This document shows positions 3,681-35,239 of a stretch of DNA of 64,000 bases, piece after piece. The notes beneath the pieces were generated by a model, which was given only the letters and a program-made list of their open reading frames with translations, made no database searches and was not told the DNA's origin. The stretch's first letter is position 1, and each line of letters begins with the position of its first letter. Where the stretch lies: positions 29,135-93,134 of the IMG/VR virus record IMGVR_UViG_3300037067_021941; one strand, 5' to 3'. The DNA comes from a virus. Its lineage: Duplodnaviria; Caudoviricetes. The translations under genes and the position numbers were made by a program.

Positions 3681-5318
3681 TTATTCTGCTTCTGATTGCA
3701 GCTTTTGCCAATCTTTTTTAGTCCAAAGAGGTTCTATAACAGTCCCCCTCTGTAAAACAAAACTATTACGATCTTTATCGTAATCAACTCTTAATCTAAC
3801 ACCCTTGTCGGCCACTAATAATCTCTTATTCTGATTTCTAATGTCTTGCTCCCACATTAACACCAAACAGGTCTTACGCCCGTCAGATATTATCATTCGA
3901 AGCATTGCAGAACCTCTTTTAGTCCTACCTTCTACTACGCTTACTATTACTCCCTCTAAACAATCATTAACCTTAGACTTTTCAACGGTGTGATCGCCAG
4001 TGATACGATATAAATCGATAGGAGAATGCCAATGATAACCTAAAAATTGTTTTTCAAATCTAAGAACCTGATCGAATGAATAATCTTCTGAGTATAAAGA
4101 TGCAATATCTGTATGCGTAGCTTTAATGATTGGTCTATAATTCAGTATCTTCGCAGGTATTACTTTTCTCTTCGGATATGTCTGTTTGAATACCGCGATC
4201 TGACGCTCCCTTTCTGCTGCAATTGTTTCTTCTGTCCAATTAGCTTTTGCCATAAGACAACGCATATGATAATTCTTCAATATCTTAATTGGGTAGCTGA
4301 AACTCTTTAATTTCGACTTCTTGTTAAGCTGTTGTTTTTTTGATTCTGCTATCTCTGCCTTAGCTTGTTCATCGACGTCTTTAAATTCAAAATCTTCGAC
4401 AGTACCAGAGCCATGCTCATGGAGGTACCACATCCATGTAGCTCTTTTGTTTGGGTGTAACTTAGAAAACGCACCCAATTTTATTAGTCGCTCAAAAAGA
4501 ATCTTACTCTTGCCTTTTTTCTCAATAAAATCGTCAATATCTGTATAAATATTATTACCGACTTTATCAACAAATGCTATCGCCGCCTTATCACCAATTT
4601 TCTTTAGACTTGTTAAACCAAGTGCTATATGTTTATTTGATACGTTGAGACCAGAGTGTGCAGTTGGATGCAATGTAAGCTTTGCTATGTCAATTTCACC
4701 AAATTTGACGTCTTCACCACGTGCGGCAGACATATATCGTTCAAGAGCCTGTTGGTCACATGTCCCCATTACGCTCGCCCACCATTCTTCGGCGAAATGT
4801 GCTTTAAGCCAAAGACAACGATATGCCCATAAGCAATAGCAGATAGCATGACTTAAATTAAAAGCGTATCGACCGAATGTCTCCATCTTATCCCAATATT
4901 CACGTGCTTTCGACTCGCCAATCTTCTTACTTGCACCAGTCAGCCAATGTTCTCTAACTGGCTTTAATTTCTCTTTCCATTTCTTTGCAACTGCTTTTCT
5001 TGCATCTTGCGATTCTGGACCAGTAAACCCCGCAATGCATTGCCATATGGATGTAAGTTGCTCTTGAAACACAATTACACCGCTTGTTATGCTTAAGATT
5101 TTGACAATATCTGGGTGTTCACCTTGTGCCCATCTATTGCTGGTGTCATCGCGATTTTTGACATAATCTGGGATAGAATTGTGAACCAAAACACTATTGG
5201 CAAAGAAATTACCCTCATTCTGCCAACATTGCTCAAAGTTGCCAATATCATAAACATCTTCTTCGTCGCACTCTTCGATGCTTATGATTTCAGCTAATTC
5301 TAAACCATCTGTGCCCAT
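3681..5318 (-). CDS. dnaE: DnaE fragment 4: split-intein C-half (IntC-2) fused to the C-terminal fingers/HhH/OB region
   Basis: N-terminus ...VYDI...NFFANSVLVHN|S is an intein F/G block. It is followed by GVIVFQEQ, GRYAFNLSHAICY, GLTSLKKIG and an OB-fold-like end typical of Pol III alpha. Confidence 0.92.
   Translation of the reverse strand: MGTDGLELAEIISIEECDEEDVYDIGNFEQCWQNEGNFFANSVLVHNSIPDYVKNRDDTSNRWAQGEHPDIVKILSITSGVIVFQEQLTSIWQCIAGFTGPESQDARKAVAKKWKEKLKPVREHWLTGASKKIGESKAREYWDKMETFGRYAFNLSHAICYCLWAYRCLWLKAHFAEEWWASVMGTCDQQALERYMSAARGEDVKFGEIDIAKLTLHPTAHSGLNVSNKHIALGLTSLKKIGDKAAIAFVDKVGNNIYTDIDDFIEKKGKSKILFERLIKLGAFSKLHPNKRATWMWYLHEHGSGTVEDFEFKDVDEQAKAEIAESKKQQLNKKSKLKSFSYPIKILKNYHMRCLMAKANWTEETIAAERERQIAVFKQTYPKRKVIPAKILNYRPIIKATHTDIASLYSEDYSFDQVLRFEKQFLGYHWHSPIDLYRITGDHTVEKSKVNDCLEGVIVSVVEGRTKRGSAMLRMIISDGRKTCLVLMWEQDIRNQNKRLLVADKGVRLRVDYDKDRNSFVLQRGTVIEPLWTKKDWQKLQSEAE
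5178..5318 (-). other. Split intein C-terminal half IntC-2
   Basis: 47 aa ending VHN (5178-5186), followed by Ser+1 (5175-5177). Strongly acidic. Confidence 0.9.
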
Positions 5319-26671: not shown

Positions 26672-26879
26672 CGAGCCAACGCTTACATTTCGAACGTTAT
26701 ACCTAGGTAAGATTACTATTCCAGCATCAATCATTGTAAAATGGACCGAACGTTTAGATGTGACTGACAGGCTAGAGCATTGTGCGGAGATCACGTTAAG
26801 AGATGGTACGTTTTTAATCGCTACCGACAGAATGACGCACAATGCGCGAAAAAACAAGAAAAATTGGCATCACTGTTAG
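26658..26879 (+). CDS. Small hypothetical protein
   Basis: ATG overlapping the end of the nuclease gene. Confidence 0.4.
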
Positions 26880-28609
26880 TTCTTCTTTTTGCTCGGTTTC
26901 TTAATAACATTCTTTTCCGCCACAACTGGCGCGTACTTGCGGAAGCATAATAAATTATTCGTAAACCATCTCATAAAATAACCATCGAAGCAATATTCTA
27001 GACATTTGTTTTGCAGATCCAACTCATGAATAAGTCCTAAATTCTTAAATTTATCACACCAATATTGCTTGGGACGACAATTGATATGCCCAACTCCACC
27101 TTGCCCAGGTTGTGCTGCAGTCCAAATAAGAATGCCGTTAGGTGAGAGACAATCGTAAATTTGTTTTGCGATCTGATCAGAATATTGTGGGTCAATGTGC
27201 TCCGCAACTTCTAAACAGACGACCAATGGTTTTTGATACTTACCATTTAACCTCAAAAGGTCCTCAACAAACAAATTTTCTTCATTATCGATACGTGGAT
27301 CAATATCAATACCTATGCAATTGACGCCGATATCAGTCATCGCATAGGTATAAGTTCCGGGACCACATCCGATATCAATGACATCATTCGGGTTAATGAC
27401 CTCTTTAATCCAAGTAGCCAACCGATTTGCGAACGGCCTCTCTTCTAAAGCTACCTGCTCGTAATCGATCTGCTCTTTTGTGATAACCGGATATATTTTT
27501 TTATTGAAGCCTAATTCGGTGCGATTTGGTTTCGGCTCATACCAGCCCTGCTTACCGTGAATGTCGAGAACAGATTCGAAGAATTCTTCGTACATCCCTG
27601 CAACTCGTTCCATTGAGAAGTTGTTTAACGCCCACTCGCGACAGATGTGTGGGTTGATTTTATGAATATTTTTGGCAGCCCAAACAAACTGTTCAAACGT
27701 ATGGCAGCGATAGCCTGTTATGCCGTGTAGATTATTCTCAGTGAAGGCACCCCAGTCTGTTGTGATAGTCGGTGTTCCAGAGAACAAGCTTTCAATTTGA
27801 ACACCGCCAAAAGGTTCATTATATTGACTGGCTAAGATCAAACCCTTTGCGCGTGCCATTAATTTCTTACGCTTATCGATATCAGCATAGCCGACAAATT
27901 CAACATGTCCATCATCAGCAAGCTTATATTCTTCATCTCTCTGCCCCGCTACCACAAGTTTAGCTCCAATAGCTTTCGTTACTTGTTCCGCGATATGAAT
28001 CCCCTTACCAACATAAACGCGACCACAGAATAGGAAATAGTCATCTTTTTCAGCTGAAAATTCAAATTCATCTGGATTAAAGTAATTCGGAATGACGACG
28101 TCATACCAATTCTGCATACAAGTACCGACAGATTGTAATCCGTAAAAAGCGTGATATATAGCATACGACTCGAAAATCTTGTACTTTGCCCAATGGCCAC
28201 CAGCATATCCAATACCTGGCTCAACGCAAATCAGATCAGGATGAGCATCACAAATCGGCCTATGCCCGGAGCCCCAAAAGGGCAAAATGAAATCGTTTTT
28301 CTGTTTTCTGATACCGATTTCTGCTATCGCATTTCTATTGAATGTTGTATAAGCGTGGTCATTTGTGTCGAATTTAAAGAAATGCTTGCGCCAATCATGA
28401 TCGCCGTAAGCTTTTTTCCAATCTTCGTTTGTTAAAACCGGCACATGTTCTGAGCACTGTAAGTCTGAATCTTCATGGCCATAGTGGATGACGGTATGTC
28501 CGCGATCGGTCATCATTTTGGCAAATTTGACGACTTTCTGCGTATATGCACAGGCAACAAACTCTTTGGATGAGACTGTATGTTGGAGTCCCATTATATG
28601 AAAACGCAT
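26876..28609 (-). CDS. GT4 glycosyltransferase fused to a class I SAM methyltransferase
   Basis: FCGRV...[18 protein letters not shown]; then [15 protein letters not shown]. Confidence 0.85.
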
Positions 28610-28649
28610 TTTATACTCCTTGAACGGATTTTGTGATTCTTTTAAATAC

Positions 28650-30251
28650 TCAGTATTGTTTTAGTGTATTCAAGAAATTCTTAACATCGCCACTAGGCAT
28701 CTCTATTCTTGTAAACGATTCTGGATATAAAACGCTAAGTATGGTATAAAACGCTTCTTCTGTGCCCATATATTTATTTTGAATGGCCCATTCTATTTCA
28801 GAATAAAATAATGGTGTCACATGTTGGATTTGCTGTTTCGTTCCACCAAATAGTGTGGCTCGACAGACGTAATTTGGATTCCTGGTGCATCGCTCAATCA
28901 TCCCATTAATATTATAGCCGTGTATCTCAGCATTCGTATAGTATGGATATGATGTAATGAAAAATTTGTCTTTTGGTATTCTCGTAAAATAGAACTGATT
29001 AAGATCATCAGATATGTGAAAACTATTACATATACCAGAGTCGATCCAATAAAAATAACTACTATTATTAGTTCTGGTGGCGGCATCTAACATACGCTGT
29101 TTCATCAACGTCATAGCAACATAGTGCCGCGAGCTTATAACACTGTCCTTCATCCATGCGGATTGGGTATCCCAACCGAAACTAGAAACAACATCAAGCA
29201 CACCTTGAAAATAATCACATGCTTCGATATCGGTAGTATTGAACTTAACAAGAGTTAAATCGTGATTACCTCGTAACTTTTTCATTAATTCGAAATGTTT
29301 TTCATCACAGTGTAGAATTAAACGATGCCTAGTATTTAGTATCTTCTTGACACCCTCTAAGTAATGAGTCTCAAAATCTCTGTCGTTTCTACCAAGATCA
29401 ACTAACATAGAAACAAGAGTGATGTCATGCGGATGACGGTAGCCTTTATCAAGAAAACGATAATTGAACTGTGGATAAATCCTGTCGTGTTTCAGTTCAT
29501 TCGGAATATAATCCTCTGGTGTTTTGGTATCATCCGGCCTTCTACCAGCAATCGCACTGCAATCGTCCCCAAGATGTCTTACATATTCCTGGCCGCCTAA
29601 GAATACTGCTTTATATCCTAACGCTAAAAATTTCCTATCAATATTCCATTCGTTATGCCATTTCTCAACACGACCAAGCCATATCAGATCATCACGTCGT
29701 TTGAGATTAGGACTGCCAACCCACCCATACCAAGCCAGATGATAATCTGTTATTGTCCAGGGTTTCTTGTTATAGTAAGAGACCTTTGTGCCGTCATTAG
29801 CCGTGAATGTAATTAAATTCTTATCGTAAGCTTTGATCCCTTGCCATTCGAATGTTCGCCAAGAAATATCGACAGTGCCGATATTTCTATACTTTTGCAG
29901 TATACGCTTAGAATCAATTAGATAACCGGGTTTTAGAAATTCCCAATCGTCTTCTAAATAGAAAATGTATTCGGAATCGCAATATGATACCATGAAATCC
30001 ATAGCCCACCACTGGCTACGATTTCTAGGGAAGCAAATAACATCACAATAAGTGCCATATTCTTCTACAAGCTTTTCAAAAACGCCCTCAACTGCACTAT
30101 CGTCGACTATCACCATCTTGGTTGCGTAGTCTCTTGTGGCTATAAATGATGCCAATGTTTTTCTTAGAACGTCTAGCCTATTACAACTCAAAACGAATGT
30201 TGTAGTATCTGAATCTGGTTGTTCTACTGTATGAAACTTAGCTTTGTTCAT
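28650..30251 (-). CDS. GT2-like domain fused to an HtrL/YibB-like domain
   Basis: IVDDS, YLEDDW; then [12 protein letters not shown]...YFYWIDSG...LFGG...GTEE. Confidence 0.7.
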
Positions 30252-31968: not shown

Positions 31969-32002
31969 GTTACCCTCGGTTAATCATCCATGATTATATA
32001 CC

Positions 32003-32551
32003 CTATTGAGTGTGAGTTGCTATAAACTCCTCGGATGACATCCAACGTTTGTGCTCGACAGACAGGACCTTTGAGAAAGCACCGATAAGAGTCGGGTTGT
32101 GTACAGCGGCGATGATTTGGTGATTCGTTGCTCGCAGCTTCGCGATAATTTTGTGAATTGATCTGATACTTAAAGCCATATCTGGTTCATCTAAAACAAA
32201 ACATTTCTTCGTATCAGATTGTTCCCCTAAGACGTCAAACAAGGCAAGGACGCAATTACCATGCGATTGAAAACGCATATACACATCAGCAGCGAATTCA
32301 ATATGGGCCTTAGTTCTTGGATTGTCGCGTTCAAAATCGAATATCCGCAGTTCGACCGTGCCTTCGCATTTCAGGTCAGCTATATTCTTTAACTCTGTCT
32401 TTTGGTTGATTCCTTTTCGAAATAACGTAAGAATAGAACTCTTACCCGTTCCTTGGTCGCCAACTAGTAGATTAACACCGGGCTCGAACTCAAAGAAGTC
32501 ACCCTCTTTGAAGCATCGCCAATCTGTTTTGAATTTAATTGATTTGATCAT
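32003..32551 (-). CDS. Small ABC-type ATPase (COG3910-like, no membrane partner)
   Basis: Walker A GDQGTGKS, signature QSHG, Walker B VLDEPD, H-loop AVHN. Confidence 0.85.
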   Translation of the reverse strand: MIKSIKFKTDWRCFKEGDFFEFEPGVNLLVGDQGTGKSSILTLFRKGINQKTELKNIADLKCEGTVELRIFDFERDNPRTKAHIEFAADVYMRFQSHGNCVLALFDVLGEQSDTKKCFVLDEPDMALSIRSIHKIIAKLRATNHQIIAAVHNPTLIGAFSKVLSVEHKRWMSSEEFIATHTQ

Positions 32552-32554
32552 GAT

Positions 32555-32593
32555 AAAAAAGTGCCCCAGTGGACATATCCGGTCCACCGGGGC
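32555..32593 (-). terminator. Intrinsic terminator-like hairpin + U-tract closing the ncRNA
   Basis: Minus strand GCCCCGGTGGAC-CGGATAT-GTCCACTGGGGC followed by ACTTTTTT. Confidence 0.6.
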
Positions 32594-33045
32594 TAGTGTA
32601 ATTGTATTACTACAATCGTGCACCGAATTACAGAGACCAACTTTTCCGTTTAACCACCCTATAGTCACCTAATAGTGAAATACAAGGAATTTTCGACCCT
32701 TGAGTTTTATACCCATGTGTAATGCGATTATACGACGACCGCAGGTTAGTATTCTGCCCGCAAGAGCGGTCGGCCTGAGTTGCACAGGCATACATGGTTG
32801 GTTTTGGTCGAGGACTCGATTTGGTCTCCGGTGCGATGTTAAACTTGTAGCGGTAATCTGAACCTTAGTGGACTGGGACCTGCCTCTAGCCGCTGGGCTA
32901 CCCCCGCGTGTTTTGATTAAGTGCGGGGACCAGGATTCGAACCTGGGCTGTGGGTTTTAGTCCGTCAAGTTGAATTTGAGATTGAGACTACGCTACTTTA
33001 ATAACCCATGACCAATCAGGTCAGGGTGTATCGTTGACCTGTATT
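32555..33045 (-). ncRNA. Large structured ncRNA with two circularly permuted tRNA-like modules (YrlA/Y-RNA-like)
   Basis: Module 1 at 32870-32963 and module 2 at 32713-32797, each T-arm then closed acceptor stem then D-arm. Enclosing long-range stems 32839-32865/32979-33001 and 32615-32640/32821-32837. Confidence 0.7.
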
Positions 33046-33795
33046 TCACAGTTGGTGATTGCAGGTATCGAAAACGTAGCCAAGGAAATTCTTGGCTACT
33101 GAAATGTCTTTCACTTCAACGCTGTTCGCTTCGCCCCTCGCAGTTCGAACTGCCTCTTGTAGCTTGACGATGCGAGCAAGCATTGCGCGGCGGTCGGTGT
33201 CGGGAACACCACCAGAGTACTTGATCGTCGACCAATAACCAACCGGGACGTCTTCCATCCAAGTCTCGACTTGAGCGGGGTGCTTGTCGGTGGCGTCGTA
33301 CTTCACGTTGTTGCGCGGCACCTTCTTGGTCCGAATCGATTCGGACGCTTCGGTGGTGTAGTCGCCGCTGTCGCCGTTCTTCGACCACTTCTCAGCCGGA
33401 TCGAGAACCGGGAACTTCGCGACGAAGGTGTGCAAGTCGGTGAGTTGCTTTTCGAGGAACAACAAGTGGGTCGCCGGGACCTGGCTGATAATGGTCTTGC
33501 CATCAACAATCACGTCGGCGAAAGCCGTTGTGTTCGCGATGTCCTGGGTGGCGACGATATCGATAACGTCGGTCAGAATGGTTCTGGCCCGTTCGATCGA
33601 TTCCGAAACGCGGATCTGAACCAGCTTCGCCTCCGAAGGTAGCTTCTCGCCTTCGTCGTTGATTGGCCGGTAATTCCGTGCGATGCCGTTGAGCAGGTCG
33701 GTCTTCTGATGTAATTTGTGCAGTTCGGTTAAACCCGACACTGCTCGCGCCTTCTTGCCATCAGCAAGCGCGATAATTTGATGTAGTTTGGCCAT
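33046..33795 (-). CDS. Conserved uncharacterised helical protein (MAKLHQIIA...), GC-rich
   Basis: GGAG RBS before ATG 33795. Motifs VPATHLLFLEKQL, FPVLDPAEKW, ATDKHPAQV and VGYW recall a widespread bacterial/phage family (from memory, not searched). Confidence 0.85.
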   Translation of the reverse strand: MAKLHQIIALADGKKARAVSGLTELHKLHQKTDLLNGIARNYRPINDEGEKLPSEAKLVQIRVSESIERARTILTDVIDIVATQDIANTTAFADVIVDGKTIISQVPATHLLFLEKQLTDLHTFVAKFPVLDPAEKWSKNGDSGDYTTEASESIRTKKVPRNNVKYDATDKHPAQVETWMEDVPVGYWSTIKYSGGVPDTDRRAMLARIVKLQEAVRTARGEANSVEVKDISVAKNFLGYVFDTCNHQL

Positions 33796-33854
33796 TTGGC
33801 TATCTCCATAGTTTGAAACTGAAAAGTGTGTTTTAGCACGACAAACGTAGTTCA

Positions 33855-34151
33855 TTAACTTCGGCGATAAGATACCGAAGGAGCATCCGCATTCGGGCCA
33901 CCAGGACCCTCTTTGATGTGGTCCTTTGTTGTGTGGTCTGTCTCTGGTTCTGCAATACCTGGGCCGACGACCTCAAGTTGGATGGTATCAATCCAACAAC
34001 CATCAACAAGTTTTCCGTCTTTATCAACAGGTGGTTTCACAAGCCATTGTACACAGCCGTTAATATATTCCGTTCTGCCGGTAACAATTCCACGTAGCCC
34101 GGTAACGCGGTCTCTGACTTCGACACGCATCCTGACAGATTCAGTAGCCAT
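33855..34151 (-). CDS. Hypothetical phage protein (SH3-like)
   Basis: RDRVTGLRGIVTGRTEYINGCVQWLVKPP. Confidence 0.65.
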   Translation of the reverse strand: MATESVRMRVEVRDRVTGLRGIVTGRTEYINGCVQWLVKPPVDKDGKLVDGCWIDTIQLEVVGPGIAEPETDHTTKDHIKEGPGGPNADAPSVSYRRS

Positions 34152-34238
34152 GATTTTCCTTCGTAATTCTTCGGAAATTGTGTGCGAACGATTGTAATAA
34201 AAAGACGCTGGTGGTAGCCGGAGCTTCATAACAAATCT

Positions 34239-34276: not shown

Positions 34277-34753
34277 TTACTCGAATTGTTGGCACCAGAA
34301 TGGAGACCCACTTGGAGAGGCATATCCAGTAAACCCGGCTTTAGTATAGCTTGAATTTAGAATATTTGCTCGATGTCCAGGGCTGCTCATCCATGCCGCT
34401 ACGACATCATCAACATCGGCTTGACCCATTGCAATATTCTCACAGCGATTTGCACAATGAATCATTGAATGGTTATTGGCCATCCACCCACAATGTTGCC
34501 TCGCATTGTGAAGTACCGTAATATCGAGAATTAAAGCTCTAAGGCCATATTTCTCTCTGATGGCATTGATGGTGTTGAGCAGCTTATTCTCGTGCTCATA
34601 TACTGGGGACTTATCGATTGGTGCATTTGATGAGGCGGTAGTACTGCCACTGCCTGAGTTATTATGATGGAAAAGGTGACGACCACGAGCAAACGCTGCG
34701 TCAGTTGATAATGATACAATCACACACATACACATAATCCACTTCATAATCAA
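34277..34753 (-). CDS. Secreted CAP-domain protein
   Basis: Signal peptide ending AFA; INAIREKYGL, ENIAMGQ, WMSSPGHRANIL, FWCQQF. Confidence 0.88.
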   Translation of the reverse strand: MIMKWIMCMCVIVSLSTDAAFARGRHLFHHNNSGSGSTTASSNAPIDKSPVYEHENKLLNTINAIREKYGLRALILDITVLHNARQHCGWMANNHSMIHCANRCENIAMGQADVDDVVAAWMSSPGHRANILNSSYTKAGFTGYASPSGSPFWCQQFE

Positions 34754-34780
34754 CTCCTTTTTGATGGGAAAACGACTGGC

Positions 34781-35239
34781 TTAAATATCGGTGACTCGTT
34801 GATATTGTGGTTCTACCGGATTATCAGTAGAACCGAATCCCTTACTACCACGCTCGGTCTCATCGAGGGTGTTTACTTCAACGATTGACACTTCTGGAAC
34901 TGGTAACACTAGCCCCTGGATTATCTTGTCGCTCGGTTGTATAAACTGAGTATCATCACTCAGGTTGACAAGACAAACCAATATTTCTCCACGGTACGTA
35001 CAATCTATCACACCGGCAAGCCGGTGAATATTTCTCTTTGCACCCATTCCAGATCTATCAAATAAAACAACACAATACCCCTCATCAATCGCTGCTGCCA
35101 ATCCGGTGTGAAAAACATAACTTTCGCCTGGTGCAAGTTGAGCATAATCAACTGTTGTTATATCAATACCAGCCTCTAATGCCCCAGCCTTCACAGGAAT
35201 CTTGGCGTCTGGTCGCAGCTTTTGGAATTTAATTTGCAT
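34781..35239 (-). CDS. dut: Trimeric dUTPase
   Basis: AGID, DRSG, GVIDCTYRGEI, IIQG, RGSKGFGST. Confidence 0.95.
   Translation of the reverse strand: MQIKFQKLRPDAKIPVKAGALEAGIDITTVDYAQLAPGESYVFHTGLAAAIDEGYCVVLFDRSGMGAKRNIHRLAGVIDCTYRGEILVCLVNLSDDTQFIQPSDKIIQGLVLPVPEVSIVEVNTLDETERGSKGFGSTDNPVEPQYQRVTDI

What the first reader, a model, noticed from the sequence alone, without database searches (positions are those of the whole stretch)
32555..33795. Candidate new RNP system: ~490-nt RNA with two circularly permuted tRNA-mimic modules behind a conserved helical protein
Seen in sequence (minus strand). Module 1 (32963 to 32870) reads GGACT..CCAGG-TTCGAAT-CCTGG (canonical T-arm), TCCCCGC-[15-nt loop]-GCGGGGG (acceptor stem closed by a loop, no CCA), TA-GCCC-AGCGGCTA-GAGGC (D-arm), ..AGTCC. 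Module 2 (32797 to 32713) reads CCATGT..GCCTG-TGCAACT-CAGGC, CGACCGC-[loop]-GCGGTCG, TC-GTATAATCGCATTAC, ACATGG. So the tRNA 3' half precedes the 5' half twice and neither module has an anticodon loop. Each sits on a long stem: GTAGCG/CGCTAC + TAGTCT/AGATTA + AATCT/AGGTT for module 1; GCACCG/CGGTGC + GAGACCAA/TTGGTCTC and TCGACC/GGTCGA for module 2. There is a hexamer-periodic tract (GTCTCA ATCTCA AATTCA ACTTGA) and a terminator at 32555-32593. Established: a T-arm, closed acceptor, D-arm order is the hallmark of YrlA-type bacterial Y RNAs, which are short, single-module and linked to Ro60/Rsr. Inference: this RNA is several-fold longer, has two modules, has no Ro60 gene in the window, and lies between an uncharacterised helical protein (33046-33795) and a small ABC ATPase (32003-32551). 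It could be the scaffold of an undescribed RNP, for example a decoy for host anticodon nucleases or tRNA-sensing defences, or an RNA repair/decay tether.
Basis: partly seen in the sequence, partly recalled or inferred. Interest (0 to 1): 0.92.

Follow-up and report, generated by a model that had tools for sequence, protein, structure and literature searches.

The report
Two-headed tRNA-mimic RNA beside DUF7873
A jumbo-phage gene of unknown function (DUF7873) is followed by a 444-base folded RNA carrying two back-to-front tRNA look-alikes, and the same gene-RNA pair recurs in many phages and bacteria, so it is probably an undescribed RNA-protein particle built on tRNA mimicry.

Summary
Window 32555-32998 (minus strand) is a structured RNA. 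It has two domains, each closed by a basal helix and capped by a circularly permuted tRNA-like head (T-arm, 7-bp acceptor, D-arm, no anticodon loop), and it ends in an intrinsic terminator. It follows a DUF7873 gene (Pfam E 1e-94).

In 67 of 68 loci with a DUF7873 relative, the same module(s) lie just downstream on the same strand. These loci include cultured phages of seven host genera and three bacterial chromosomes.

No Rfam family reaches threshold. The closest is YrlA (sub-threshold, 31-45 bits in relatives; gathering score 69).

The pair does not depend on Ro60: 9 of 10 isolate phages lack TROVE. The window's own lineage, however, does carry Ro60 with its own YrlA-like RNAs about 80 kb away.

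Features measured here:
- The acceptor "loop" starts with N73-CCA in about a third of members.
- Head 1 is tRNA-Leu-like (D-arm 36/39, A73 38/46).
- There is a T-loop/D-loop tertiary covariation.
- A period-6 tract (z 13) and a fixed UUAAAYG motif are present across the family.

The function is inferred, not shown. This scan has already found the same pair in at least 99 other genomes. The downstream ATPase is not part of it.

The parts
33046..33795 (-). DUF7873 protein gene (249 aa)
   Evidence: Pfam PF25283 E 1e-94. There are 4868 homologous clusters, all named 'hypothetical' or the like; none carries a functional annotation that fits. The AF2 model has pLDDT 88.7 and no convincing PDB or BFVD match.
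32555..32998 (-). Conserved structured RNA (444 nt), two domains plus terminator
   Evidence: Conserved from GTAGCG to the terminator in L011-L015, while the flanks diverge. MFE z -4.86. No Rfam match.
32991..32996 (-). Basal helix P1, 5' strand (GTAGCG); pairs with 32847-32852
   Evidence: RNAalifold pairs 3-8 with 153-158. Two of these pairs show compensatory changes.
32965..32990 (-). Hexamer-periodic tract (TAGTCT CAATCT CAAATT CAACTT ..)
   Evidence: Period-6 signal across 37 loci: lag 6 z 13.1, lag 12 z 7.2. Part of the tract pairs with AGGTT/AGATTA at 32865-32853.
32861..32970 (-). Module 1: permuted tRNA-Leu-like head (T-arm 32946-32930; acceptor 32929-32923 with 32907-32901; junction loop 32922-32908 starting A-CUU; D-arm 32898-32882)
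   Evidence: Model R1 scores it 69.6 bits, E 6e-25; this stretch is itself one of R1's 42 training rows, so the match is by construction. Stems covary across the family. The D-arm is closest to tRNA-Leu.
32835..32846 (-). Linker between the two domains
   Evidence: Unpaired in the consensus structure.
32620..32834 (-). Domain 2: basal helices P2 (32834-32828 with 32626-32620) and P2b (32827-32821 with 32640-32634), enclosing module 2
   Evidence: Compensatory changes at 7 of 14 pairs in six sequences.
32816..32820 (-). AUCGA motif in the linker strand of domain 2
   Evidence: ATCRA occurs in 33 of 42 loci against 8.7 expected.
32696..32813 (-). Module 2: permuted tRNA-like head with variant T-loop UGCAACU (T-arm 32789-32773; acceptor 32772-32766 with 32742-32736; junction loop 32765-32743 starting U-CUU; D-arm 32733-32719)
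   Evidence: R1 scores it 20.4 bits, E 9e-8 with filters off. Stems covary. G55 in the T-loop goes with CG in place of GG in the D-loop.
32656..32692 (-). 37-nt insertion specific to this phage
   Evidence: Absent from L011-L015.
32647..32653 (-). UUAAACG motif
   Evidence: TTAAAYG lies 21-24 nt after the module-2 D-arm in 32 of 42 loci against 0.7 expected. Here it is displaced by the insertion.
32601..32616 (-). Small hairpin before the terminator
   Evidence: Seen in the MFE fold. Not scored in the consensus structure.
32555..32593 (-). Intrinsic terminator (12-bp stem, U run)
   Evidence: Terminator scan. Conserved with G-U/G-C changes.

Best explanation
This is a member of a widespread RNA family that is absent from Rfam and from the papers I could search. 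The family is always encoded right after a DUF7873 gene, and the two most likely act as one RNA-protein particle that does not need Ro60.

The RNA has two domains. Each is closed by a basal helix and topped by a circularly permuted tRNA-like head. Each head has an intact elbow (T-loop/D-loop contact) and a full 7-bp acceptor stem, but no anticodon loop. Head 1 descends from tRNA-Leu and keeps A73. Head 2 is a generic class-I head, Gly-like in this phage.

The 'loop' closing each acceptor is built like the junction between a tRNA 3' trailer and a 5' leader (N73, then CCA or a U-rich CCA-less trailer, then at least 3 nt, then +1). I infer that RNase P and the 3'-end maturation enzymes open it, as they do in vivo for M. 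smegmatis YrlA. That would leave two free CCA ends on a multi-piece RNA held together by its helices.

A period-6 tract and two fixed motifs (AUCGA, UUAAACG) are the likeliest docking sites for DUF7873.

Proposed role (inferred): to present two tRNA-shaped heads to tRNA-handling machinery during the phage-host conflict over tRNAs. This could be as a decoy or sponge for factors that recognise the acceptor end and elbow, or as an adaptor that recruits tRNA maturation or repair enzymes.

Shown: sequence, structure, conservation and gene linkage. Inferred: transcription, processing, protein binding and function.
For: Linkage:
- Modules lie just downstream of DUF7873, on the same strand, in 67 of 68 loci.
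- This includes three bacterial chromosomes with unrelated neighbours and Vibrio phages at 28% protein identity.
- In whole phage genomes the top model hits are at the DUF7873 locus.

Structure:
- T, acceptor and D stems are 97-100% paired, and all 15 of their pairs covary. On 112 model-aligned matches the covariation score is 0.76, against 0.19 shuffled and at most 0.16 slid.
- The basal helices covary.
- Family-level complementarity across each domain has mean z -1.5 and -1.9, against +0.1 for the wrong partners.

Elbow:
- T-loop U55 goes with D-loop GG in 73 of 78 heads. G55 goes with CG or AG in 12 of 13.

Acceptor junction:
- N73-CCA opens the loop in 16 and 15 of 46 non-redundant loci, where chance gives about 0.7.
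- The spacer after CCA is never shorter than 3 nt.
- U is at -1 in 26 of 42 and G at +1 in 34 of 42 for head 2.
- Where the phage's own tRNA genes encode CCA, 5 of 5 heads do too.
- Precedent: M. smegmatis YrlA, with a 7-bp acceptor stem, is cut by RNase P and receives CCA in vivo (PMC4201824; 10.1101/312249).

Leu-like head: the D-arm best matches tRNA-Leu in 36 of 39 loci, and A73 is present in 38 of 46.

Ro60 independence: 9 of 10 isolate phages lack TROVE.

Context: the pair lies inside tRNA arrays in Arthrobacter, Gordonia, Rhodococcus, Rhizobium and Vibrio phages.
Against: - There are no transcript, processing, binding or phenotype data of any kind.
- DUF7873 has no recognisable RNA-binding or catalytic fold.
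- About two thirds of heads lack encoded CCA, including both heads of this window.
- Some junction loops are sequence-conserved (UCUUG..GGGCA in head 2 of this clade), which argues that they are kept rather than excised.
- The anticodon-stem equivalent is only 52-64% paired in the canonical register.
- My loci were found through the protein, so the rate of linkage applies to relatives of 28% identity or more. An earlier check in this scan (e1-2703945) found the pairing much less regular with a cruder pattern test.
- One locus pair (L020/L021) has no downstream module.
- The window's lineage does carry Ro60, so use of Ro60 in trans cannot be excluded here.
Confidence: 0.5

Rival explanations
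1. Same particle, but the acceptor loops stay closed. The RNA would be an uncut scaffold that only mimics the tRNA elbow and acceptor helix, as is proposed for most YrlA RNAs. The CCA would be read inside a loop, or would be an evolutionary leftover.
For: - Most YrlA RNAs are thought to keep closed acceptor loops (10.1101/312249).
- Both window loops lack CCA.
- The head-2 loop is sequence-conserved in this clade.
- Long loops often fold into their own hairpin.
Against: - A universal 7-bp acceptor stem is the main determinant of RNase P cleavage (PMC4201824).
- N73-CCA is enriched more than 20-fold at a fixed position.
- The minimum spacer after CCA is 3 nt.
- No stable tetraloop caps are seen. 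The shortest loops are 5-7 nt and begin with a discriminator-like base.
Confidence: 0.2
2. They are extra Y RNAs of the YrlA class that work with the phage's Ro60 encoded elsewhere. DUF7873 would be only a neighbour.
For: - Relatives on complete contigs encode TROVE/Ro60.
- Head 2 of several relatives scores 31-45 bits against Rfam YrlA.
- My module model also picks up the Ro60-adjacent RNAs at 36-39 bits.
Against: - 9 of 10 isolate phages with the pair have no TROVE gene.
- The TROVE genes have their own adjacent YrlA-like RNAs.
- The Ro60-binding motif GNCGAAN0-1G occurs in only 8 of 42 RNAs and not in the window.
- No match reaches the family's gathering score of 69 bits.
- Linkage to DUF7873 holds across phyla, while all other neighbours change.
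Confidence: 0.1
3. It is a cis-acting 3' UTR of the DUF7873 mRNA, for example for mRNA stability or autoregulation, and not a trans-acting RNA.
For: - There is no sigma-70-like promoter between gene and RNA, and a single terminator after the RNA.
- The order and strand are constant.
Against: - About 400 nt with two full tRNA-like heads, conserved elbow contacts and CCA junctions is far more than a stabiliser needs.
- In one phage the modules lie 1.8 kb downstream, after another gene (L007).
Confidence: 0.07
4. They are permuted pre-tRNA genes that mature into real tRNAs. The extended anticodon helix would be cut and joined, and the acceptor then opened, as in red-algal permuted tRNAs, with DUF7873 as the processing factor.
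For: - The order is 3' half then 5' half, with N73-CCA and canonical tRNA features.
- This possibility is raised for YrlA in 10.1101/312249.
Against: - No 7-nt anticodon-loop equivalent or conserved cleavage motif is visible.
- The anticodon-stem equivalent is poorly conserved.
- The two heads sit in a conserved larger architecture with basal helices, a hexamer tract and fixed motifs.
- DUF7873 resembles no nuclease or ligase.
- Bacteria lack the splicing endonuclease (10.1101/312249).
Confidence: 0.05
5. It is a two-piece (permuted) tmRNA-like rescue RNA.
For: - It has the same gene order as permuted ssrA: T-arm, acceptor 3' strand, intervening segment, acceptor 5' strand.
- One relative gives a weak beta_tmRNA hit (24.8 bits).
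Against: - ARAGORN and Rfam find no tmRNA here.
- G3:U70 occurs in 1 of 42 heads.
- There are two heads, and the partner is not SmpB-like.
- Phendrix has a separate genuine tmRNA.
Confidence: 0.02

Closest known systems
YrlA (Y RNA-like A; Rfam RF02553) with Ro60/Rsr (Chen et al. 2014, PMC4201824; Wang et al. 2018, bioRxiv 10.1101/312249)
   Same: - The head is a circularly permuted tRNA mimic in the order T-arm, acceptor stem-loop, D-arm, on an open anticodon-stem equivalent that runs into a basal helix.
- The elbow contacts are kept.
- M. smegmatis YrlA has a 7-bp acceptor stem, is cut by RNase P and receives CCA.
- Tandem Y RNAs (YrlA and YrlB) are common.
   Different: - There are two heads in one roughly 400-nt transcription unit.
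- The constant neighbour is DUF7873, not Ro60.
- No Ro60-binding motif is present.
- A 7-bp acceptor stem is universal, often with encoded N73-CCA.
- Head 1 is tRNA-Leu-like.
- It has a period-6 tract and a UUAAAYG motif.
- Scores stay below Rfam's threshold (0-45 bits against 69).
Two-piece (circularly permuted) tmRNA
   Same: The gene is permuted, so that T-arm and acceptor 3' strand plus CCA come before the acceptor 5' strand. The intervening segment is removed to leave a base-paired multi-piece RNA.
   Different: There is no alanine identity pair, no SmpB partner and no detected tag frame, and there are two tRNA-like domains.
[quoted passage not shown]
   Same: A predicted tRNA-like RNA partnered with a protein other than Ro60, placed in the setting of RNA repair and conflict.
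   Different: That RNA is described as resembling an authentic tRNA and goes with a Band-7 protein. Here Band-7 is next to the pair in only one phage (NiceHouse). The original paper could not be read.
Permuted tRNA genes of Cyanidioschyzon merolae and some archaea
   Same: The 3' half precedes the 5' half. The acceptor is closed by an intervening sequence that RNase P and RNase Z open.
   Different: Those genes mature to normal tRNAs with an anticodon. Here no anticodon loop can be drawn, and the heads are embedded in a larger conserved RNA.

Membership tests
YrlA (Rfam RF02553) | Score at or above the curated gathering score (69 bits) | tested here: not met
   The window gives no hit even at E<=10. 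Head 2 of relatives scores 31-45 bits.
YrlA (Rfam RF02553) | Encoded next to a Ro60/TROVE gene | tested here: not met
   No TROVE in the window's record. In relatives TROVE lies 23-80 kb away. It is absent from 9 of 10 isolate phages.
YrlA (Rfam RF02553) | Ro60-binding basal stem with GNCGAAN0-1G | tested here: not met
   The motif occurs in 8 of 42 RNAs, at no fixed place, and not in the window.
YrlA (Rfam RF02553) | tRNA-like domain in the order T-arm, acceptor stem-loop, D-arm, without an anticodon loop | tested here: met
   Present twice. The stems covary.
YrlA (Rfam RF02553) | tRNA-type elbow (T-loop/D-loop contact) | tested here: met
   U55 goes with GG in 73 of 78 heads; G55 goes with CG or AG in 12 of 13. 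This rests on sequence covariation only, with no 3D data.
Canonical tRNA | Cloverleaf with an anticodon arm, detected by ARAGORN or Rfam tRNA | tested here: not met
   ARAGORN finds 0 genes in the window. Rfam gives no tRNA hit.
tmRNA (one- or two-piece) | Detected by ARAGORN or the Rfam tmRNA models | tested here: not met
tmRNA (one- or two-piece) | G3:U70 alanine identity pair | tested here: not met
   The pair at 3:70 is G:U in 1 of 42 heads. In the window both heads have G3:C70.
tmRNA (one- or two-piece) | Tag reading frame and SmpB partner | not tested
   No search for a tag frame was made. The partner protein's model is a helical bundle plus sheet, but it was not compared with SmpB directly.
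DUF7873 (Pfam PF25283), the protein partner | Score above Pfam's gathering score over the full length | tested here: met
   317 bits against a cut-off of 27, covering profile positions 1-242 of 244.
b7a-tRNA / Band-7 system | Band-7/SPFH gene adjacent | tested here: not met
   tblastn with the NiceHouse Band-7 protein finds it only in NiceHouse, among all loci held and the window.
Permuted tRNA genes (C. merolae type) | Bulge-helix-bulge motif that allows the anticodon loop to be joined | not tested
   No motif search was made. The anticodon-stem equivalent is only 52-64% paired in the canonical register.

The most novel reading that the evidence does not exclude
Both acceptor junctions are opened to free CCA ends, and at least head 1 is charged. 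Head 1 has a tRNA-Leu-type D-arm and A73, the features that (from my memory of the literature) LeuRS uses without reading the anticodon. The particle would then be a two-headed aminoacyl-tRNA mimic. Together with DUF7873 it would engage a machine that handles tRNA acceptor ends, such as the large ribosomal subunit's A and P sites, an aminoacyl-tRNA transferase, or a toxin that attacks CCA ends. This would be a new way for phages and mobile elements to tap or block translation.
Probability: 0.1. Interest if true: 0.95.

Novelty: new variant of a known kind. Interest (0 to 1): 0.8.

Why it matters
The tRNA-like heads are of the YrlA kind, whose own function is still unknown after a decade. Here the same building block appears twice in one RNA. 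Its partner is a different, very highly conserved protein: about 40-50% identity between phages of actinobacteria, cyanobacteria and metagenomic relatives, and 4868 clusters in all. Many copies carry an encoded CCA end. The pair sits inside phage tRNA arrays and in variable regions of bacterial chromosomes.

If it is a real particle, it is one of the most widespread large non-coding RNAs still missing from Rfam. It also offers cultured, harmless model phages (Gordonia, Arthrobacter, Rhodococcus) for asking what tRNA mimicry without an anticodon is for.

The CCA junction, the tRNA-Leu ancestry of head 1 and the T-loop/D-loop covariation each make a concrete prediction that can be tested at the bench.

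Tried and rejected
- **Rfam.** Nothing at gathering thresholds over the whole window. At E<=10 over 1 kb the only hits were a terminator look-alike (NsiR1), a miRNA and radC, all chance.
- **ARAGORN.** No tRNA or tmRNA.
- **blastn of the RNA against 50,697 phage records.** No match. The family is visible only through the protein or a structure model.
- **Fold searches with the DUF7873 model.**
  - Foldseek against PDB: best E 6e-3 at TM about 0.1, with Cas7 rows that are meaningless at that TM.
  - VIA-align wide: best Z 8.1, generic helical bundles.
  - BFVD: nothing.
  - PDB sequence profile: nothing.
  - ESM Atlas: only its own family and unnamed phage clusters at TM 0.46.
- **PHROGs.** No family for the protein.
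- **Literature.**
  - 'DUF7873' occurs in 0 papers.
  - Searches for permuted tRNA or tRNA-like RNA in phages found nothing on this pair.
  - Burroughs and Aravind 2016 could not be opened by PMC id or DOI. I know its b7a-tRNA only through 10.1101/312249.
- **Chimeric tRNA.** I considered that acceptor strand 5'(1) pairs with 3'(2), which would make a chimeric tRNA from the middle piece. This is not systematic across loci.
- **Dimeric tRNA junctions as false positives.** These explain the weaker model hits inside tRNA arrays, but not the DUF7873-linked modules, whose two acceptor strands pair with each other.
- **ATPase at 32003-32551 as a partner.** Rejected; it is not conserved.
- **N73:N-1 pairing.** Tested as a sign of selection for exactly 7 bp and uninformative: 8 of 40 and 16 of 41, against about 37% by chance.
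Full report
**What is there.** On the minus strand, a 249-aa gene (33795-33046) is followed by 491 non-coding bases that end in a strong intrinsic terminator (32593-32563 plus a U run). The gene is a full-length member of Pfam DUF7873 (317 bits).

ARAGORN finds no tRNA or tmRNA in the window. Rfam 15 has no match at its gathering thresholds, and nothing relevant even at E<=10. The stretch folds better than all 100 dinucleotide shuffles (z -4.86). The window is phage DNA, a 93-kb fragment rated 26% complete.

**It is a family, tied to the gene.**
- tblastn finds DUF7873 in 75 cultured-phage records, with hosts in Arthrobacter, Gordonia, Rhodococcus, Pseudanabaena, Microcoleus, Rhizobium, Klebsiella/Serratia, Vibrio and Ralstonia.
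- In all ten loci that I opened, a 400-1100-nt unannotated gap follows the gene. In Arthrobacter, Gordonia, Rhodococcus and Rhizobium phages the pair sits inside a tRNA gene array.
- IMG/VR gave 65 more loci. Among them are a 94%-identical protein on a complete 388-kb contig and four relatives at 64-76%.
- A simple parser found two T-arm/acceptor/D-arm modules, about 150-170 nt apart, in most loci.
- A covariance model built from 42 copies of module 1 (R1) finds module(s) directly downstream, on the same strand, in 67 of 68 loci.
- That count includes three bacterial chromosomes whose other neighbours are unrelated: restriction, TIR-VWA and transposase genes.
- Vibrio phages with only 28% protein identity still have a module.
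- In the window, R1 scores module 1 at 69.6 bits, though this stretch is one of R1's own training rows, so that match is by construction. With filters off it scores module 2, which was not in the training set, at 20.4 bits.
- In whole phage genomes the best R1 hits are at the DUF7873 locus. Weaker hits are junctions between neighbouring tRNA genes or lie next to Ro60 genes.
- The protein family is large, with 4868 clusters at E<=1e-5, all named 'hypothetical' or the like and none carrying a functional annotation that fits.

**Structure.**
- On the 42-sequence alignment, and on 112 model-aligned matches, the T, acceptor and D helices are 97-100% paired, with compensatory changes at all 15 pairs. 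The covariation score is 0.76, against 0.19 for shuffles and at most 0.16 when partners are slid.
- Pairing in the first set is partly by construction, because my parser demanded it, and the second alignment is fitted to the model. The many pair types, however, are not produced by either step.
- The anticodon-stem equivalent is weak in the canonical register (52-64% paired).
- In the window's own clade (six sequences), RNAalifold gives each module its own closing helices: GTAGCG/CGCTAC for domain 1, and GCACCGG/UCGGUGC plus AGACCAA/UUGGUCU for domain 2. Compensatory changes occur at 2 and 7 pairs respectively. The structure ends in the conserved terminator.
- Across 39 loci, the strands that should close each domain are more complementary than shuffles (mean z -1.5 and -1.9), while the wrong partners are not (+0.1).
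- This phage has a private 37-nt insertion at 32692-32656.

**Features beyond the heads.**
- The 50 nt before module 1 are periodic with period 6 in 37 loci (lag 6 z 13.1, lag 12 z 7.2).
- TTAAAYG lies 21-24 nt after the module-2 D-arm in 32 of 42 loci (0.7 expected).
- ATCRA occurs in the inter-module strand in 33 of 42 loci (8.7 expected).
- These are the best candidates for protein contacts. That is inference.

**The acceptor 'loop' is a tRNA end junction.**
- In 16 (head 1) and 15 (head 2) of 46 non-redundant loci, the loop begins with a discriminator base followed by CCA. Chance would give about 0.7.
- After CCA there are always at least 3 nt before +1.
- Position -1 is U in 26 of 42 and +1 is G in 34 of 42 for head 2. 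From memory, these are what RNase P prefers.
- Where the flanking phage tRNA genes encode CCA, 5 of 5 heads do too. Where they do not, 10 of 24 heads still do (small numbers, Fisher p 0.04).
- The window's loops start A-CUU and U-CUU, the look of a CCA-less trailer.
- There is direct precedent. M. smegmatis YrlA, the YrlA with a 7-bp acceptor stem, is cleaved by RNase P and receives CCA in vivo, whereas most YrlA have shorter stems and are thought to stay closed (PMC4201824; 10.1101/312249). Here the 7-bp stem is universal.
- I therefore infer that the loops are opened, giving a multi-piece RNA with two CCA ends. Against this, the head-2 loop (UCUUG..GGGCA) is sequence-conserved in this clade, which would suit a loop that is kept.

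**The heads are real tRNA shapes and are not equivalent.**
- T-loop position 55 is U with GG in the D-loop in 73 of 78 heads. Where position 55 is G, as in the window's head 2 (UGCAACU), the D-loop has CG or AG instead of GG in 12 of 13 heads. This occurs in both modules and in several lineages. It is a tertiary covariation of the elbow contact.
- Head 1's D-arm is closest to tRNA-Leu in 36 of 39 loci, although Leu makes up only 17 of the 125 reference tRNAs. Its discriminator is A in 38 of 46.
- Head 2 has no constant isotype. Its discriminator is U in 27, G in 10 and A in 9 of 46. In the window it looks Gly-like.
- From memory, LeuRS is one of the few synthetases that ignores the anticodon. 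That makes charging of head 1 conceivable, but nothing here tests it.

**Relation to Ro60 and Y RNAs.**
- The architecture of each head is that of YrlA, the closest known family. Head 2 of several relatives gives sub-threshold YrlA hits (31-45 bits against a gathering score of 69).
- Membership fails on score, on Ro60 adjacency and on the Ro60-binding motif, which occurs in 8 of 42 RNAs and not in the window.
The window's record is a fragment. Its close relatives on 64-100%-complete contigs do encode TROVE proteins, 23-80 kb from DUF7873, each with its own YrlA-like RNAs beside it. In this lineage the two systems therefore coexist.
- Across the family the pair does not need Ro60, since 9 of 10 isolate phages lack TROVE.

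**The protein.** AlphaFold gives a confident model (pLDDT 88.7): five long helices and a beta sheet. Nothing in PDB, BFVD or the ESM Atlas matches it convincingly, and no PDB sequence is related. That the protein binds the RNA rests only on gene linkage.

**What it most likely does.** The best reading (0.5) is a Ro60-independent particle of DUF7873 and this RNA. It would display two tRNA-shaped heads, probably with free CCA ends, to tRNA-handling machinery. Its setting in phage tRNA arrays and in variable chromosomal regions points to the conflict over tRNAs. It could act as a decoy or sponge for factors that read the acceptor end and elbow, or as an adaptor for maturation or repair enzymes. 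A decoy for anticodon nucleases is unlikely without an anticodon loop.

Rivals are:
- the same particle with closed loops (0.2);
- extra Ro60 Y RNAs (0.1);
- a cis-acting 3' UTR (0.07);
- permuted precursors of real tRNAs (0.05);
- a tmRNA-like RNA (0.02).

**Novelty and earlier notes.**
- I found no paper naming DUF7873 or describing this pair. The nearest ideas in print are YrlA/Ro60 and the Band-7-associated tRNA. Band-7 is adjacent in only one of my loci.
- This scan has already reported the same pair on other DNA, with 154 notes in at least 99 genomes. One later check there priced the 'protein binds RNA, Ro60-independent unit' claim at only 22/100, for lack of any experimental datum and because a crude pattern test found the pairing irregular. 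With a structure model I find the pairing in 67 of 68 relatives, but my set was drawn through the protein at 28% identity or more.
Earlier notes had already mentioned the six-letter repeats.

Noticed in passing
L079 599-712 and G001:C1:181108-181203; TROVE at G001:C1:182300-182884: The complete 388-kb relative of this phage encodes a Ro60/TROVE protein (482-aa frame). Two YrlA-like RNAs lie just upstream of it (Rfam YrlA 35.8 bits; my module model 37.6 bits). This locus is 80 kb from its DUF7873 locus. G002 and G004 show the same arrangement.
   Followed up: partly
L005 4269-5249 (Rhodococcus phage NiceHouse): Right after the DUF7873 RNA come tRNA-Lys(ttt) and a Band-7-like membrane protein gene. 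This resembles the 'Band-7-associated tRNA' arrangement cited in 10.1101/312249. No other locus held shows it.
   Followed up: partly
L004 1072-1600 (Gordonia phage Phendrix): A phage-encoded tmRNA (Rfam 89 bits) lies in the same tRNA array. It is not annotated in the stretch of the record that I fetched.
   Followed up: no
L006 about 4185-4225 (Gordonia phage Ziko), module-2 acceptor loop: The 38-nt junction loop holds a terminator-like hairpin (AAAGCCTT..AAGGCTTTT). The two halves of that head might therefore be made as separate transcripts.
   Followed up: no
window 32765-32743 and the same loop in L011-L015, L028, L032, L035, L046: The head-2 junction loop keeps a conserved UCUUG(N0-2)GGG(C)A sequence in the lineages that also have the variant T-loop UGCAAYU. 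I could not find its pairing partner.
   Followed up: partly
L020 (and L021): This is the only DUF7873 locus pair without a downstream module. A weak module-like hit (23 bits) lies upstream on the opposite strand at 975-1069.
   Followed up: partly
window 32003-32551 (-): A 182-aa P-loop protein has SMC/AAA_23-type N-terminal and AAA_21-type C-terminal matches. It starts 4 nt after the terminator's U run and is not found after the RNA in relatives.
   Followed up: partly
window 33855-34229 (-): A 124-aa ORF (phrog_16275, unknown function) lies directly upstream of DUF7873, and a terminator-like hairpin at 34260-34239 precedes it. It may belong to the same transcription unit.
   Followed up: no
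window 32001-34000: G+C is 0.49 here, against about 0.39 in the surrounding 30 kb. This fits a laterally mobile gene-RNA cassette and a G+C-rich structured RNA.
   Followed up: no
window 26876-30251 and 34277-35239 (-): Neighbouring genes are glycosyltransferase-methyltransferase fusions, a CAP-domain protein and a dUTPase. These are ordinary jumbo-phage accessory genes, unrelated to the RNA.
   Followed up: no
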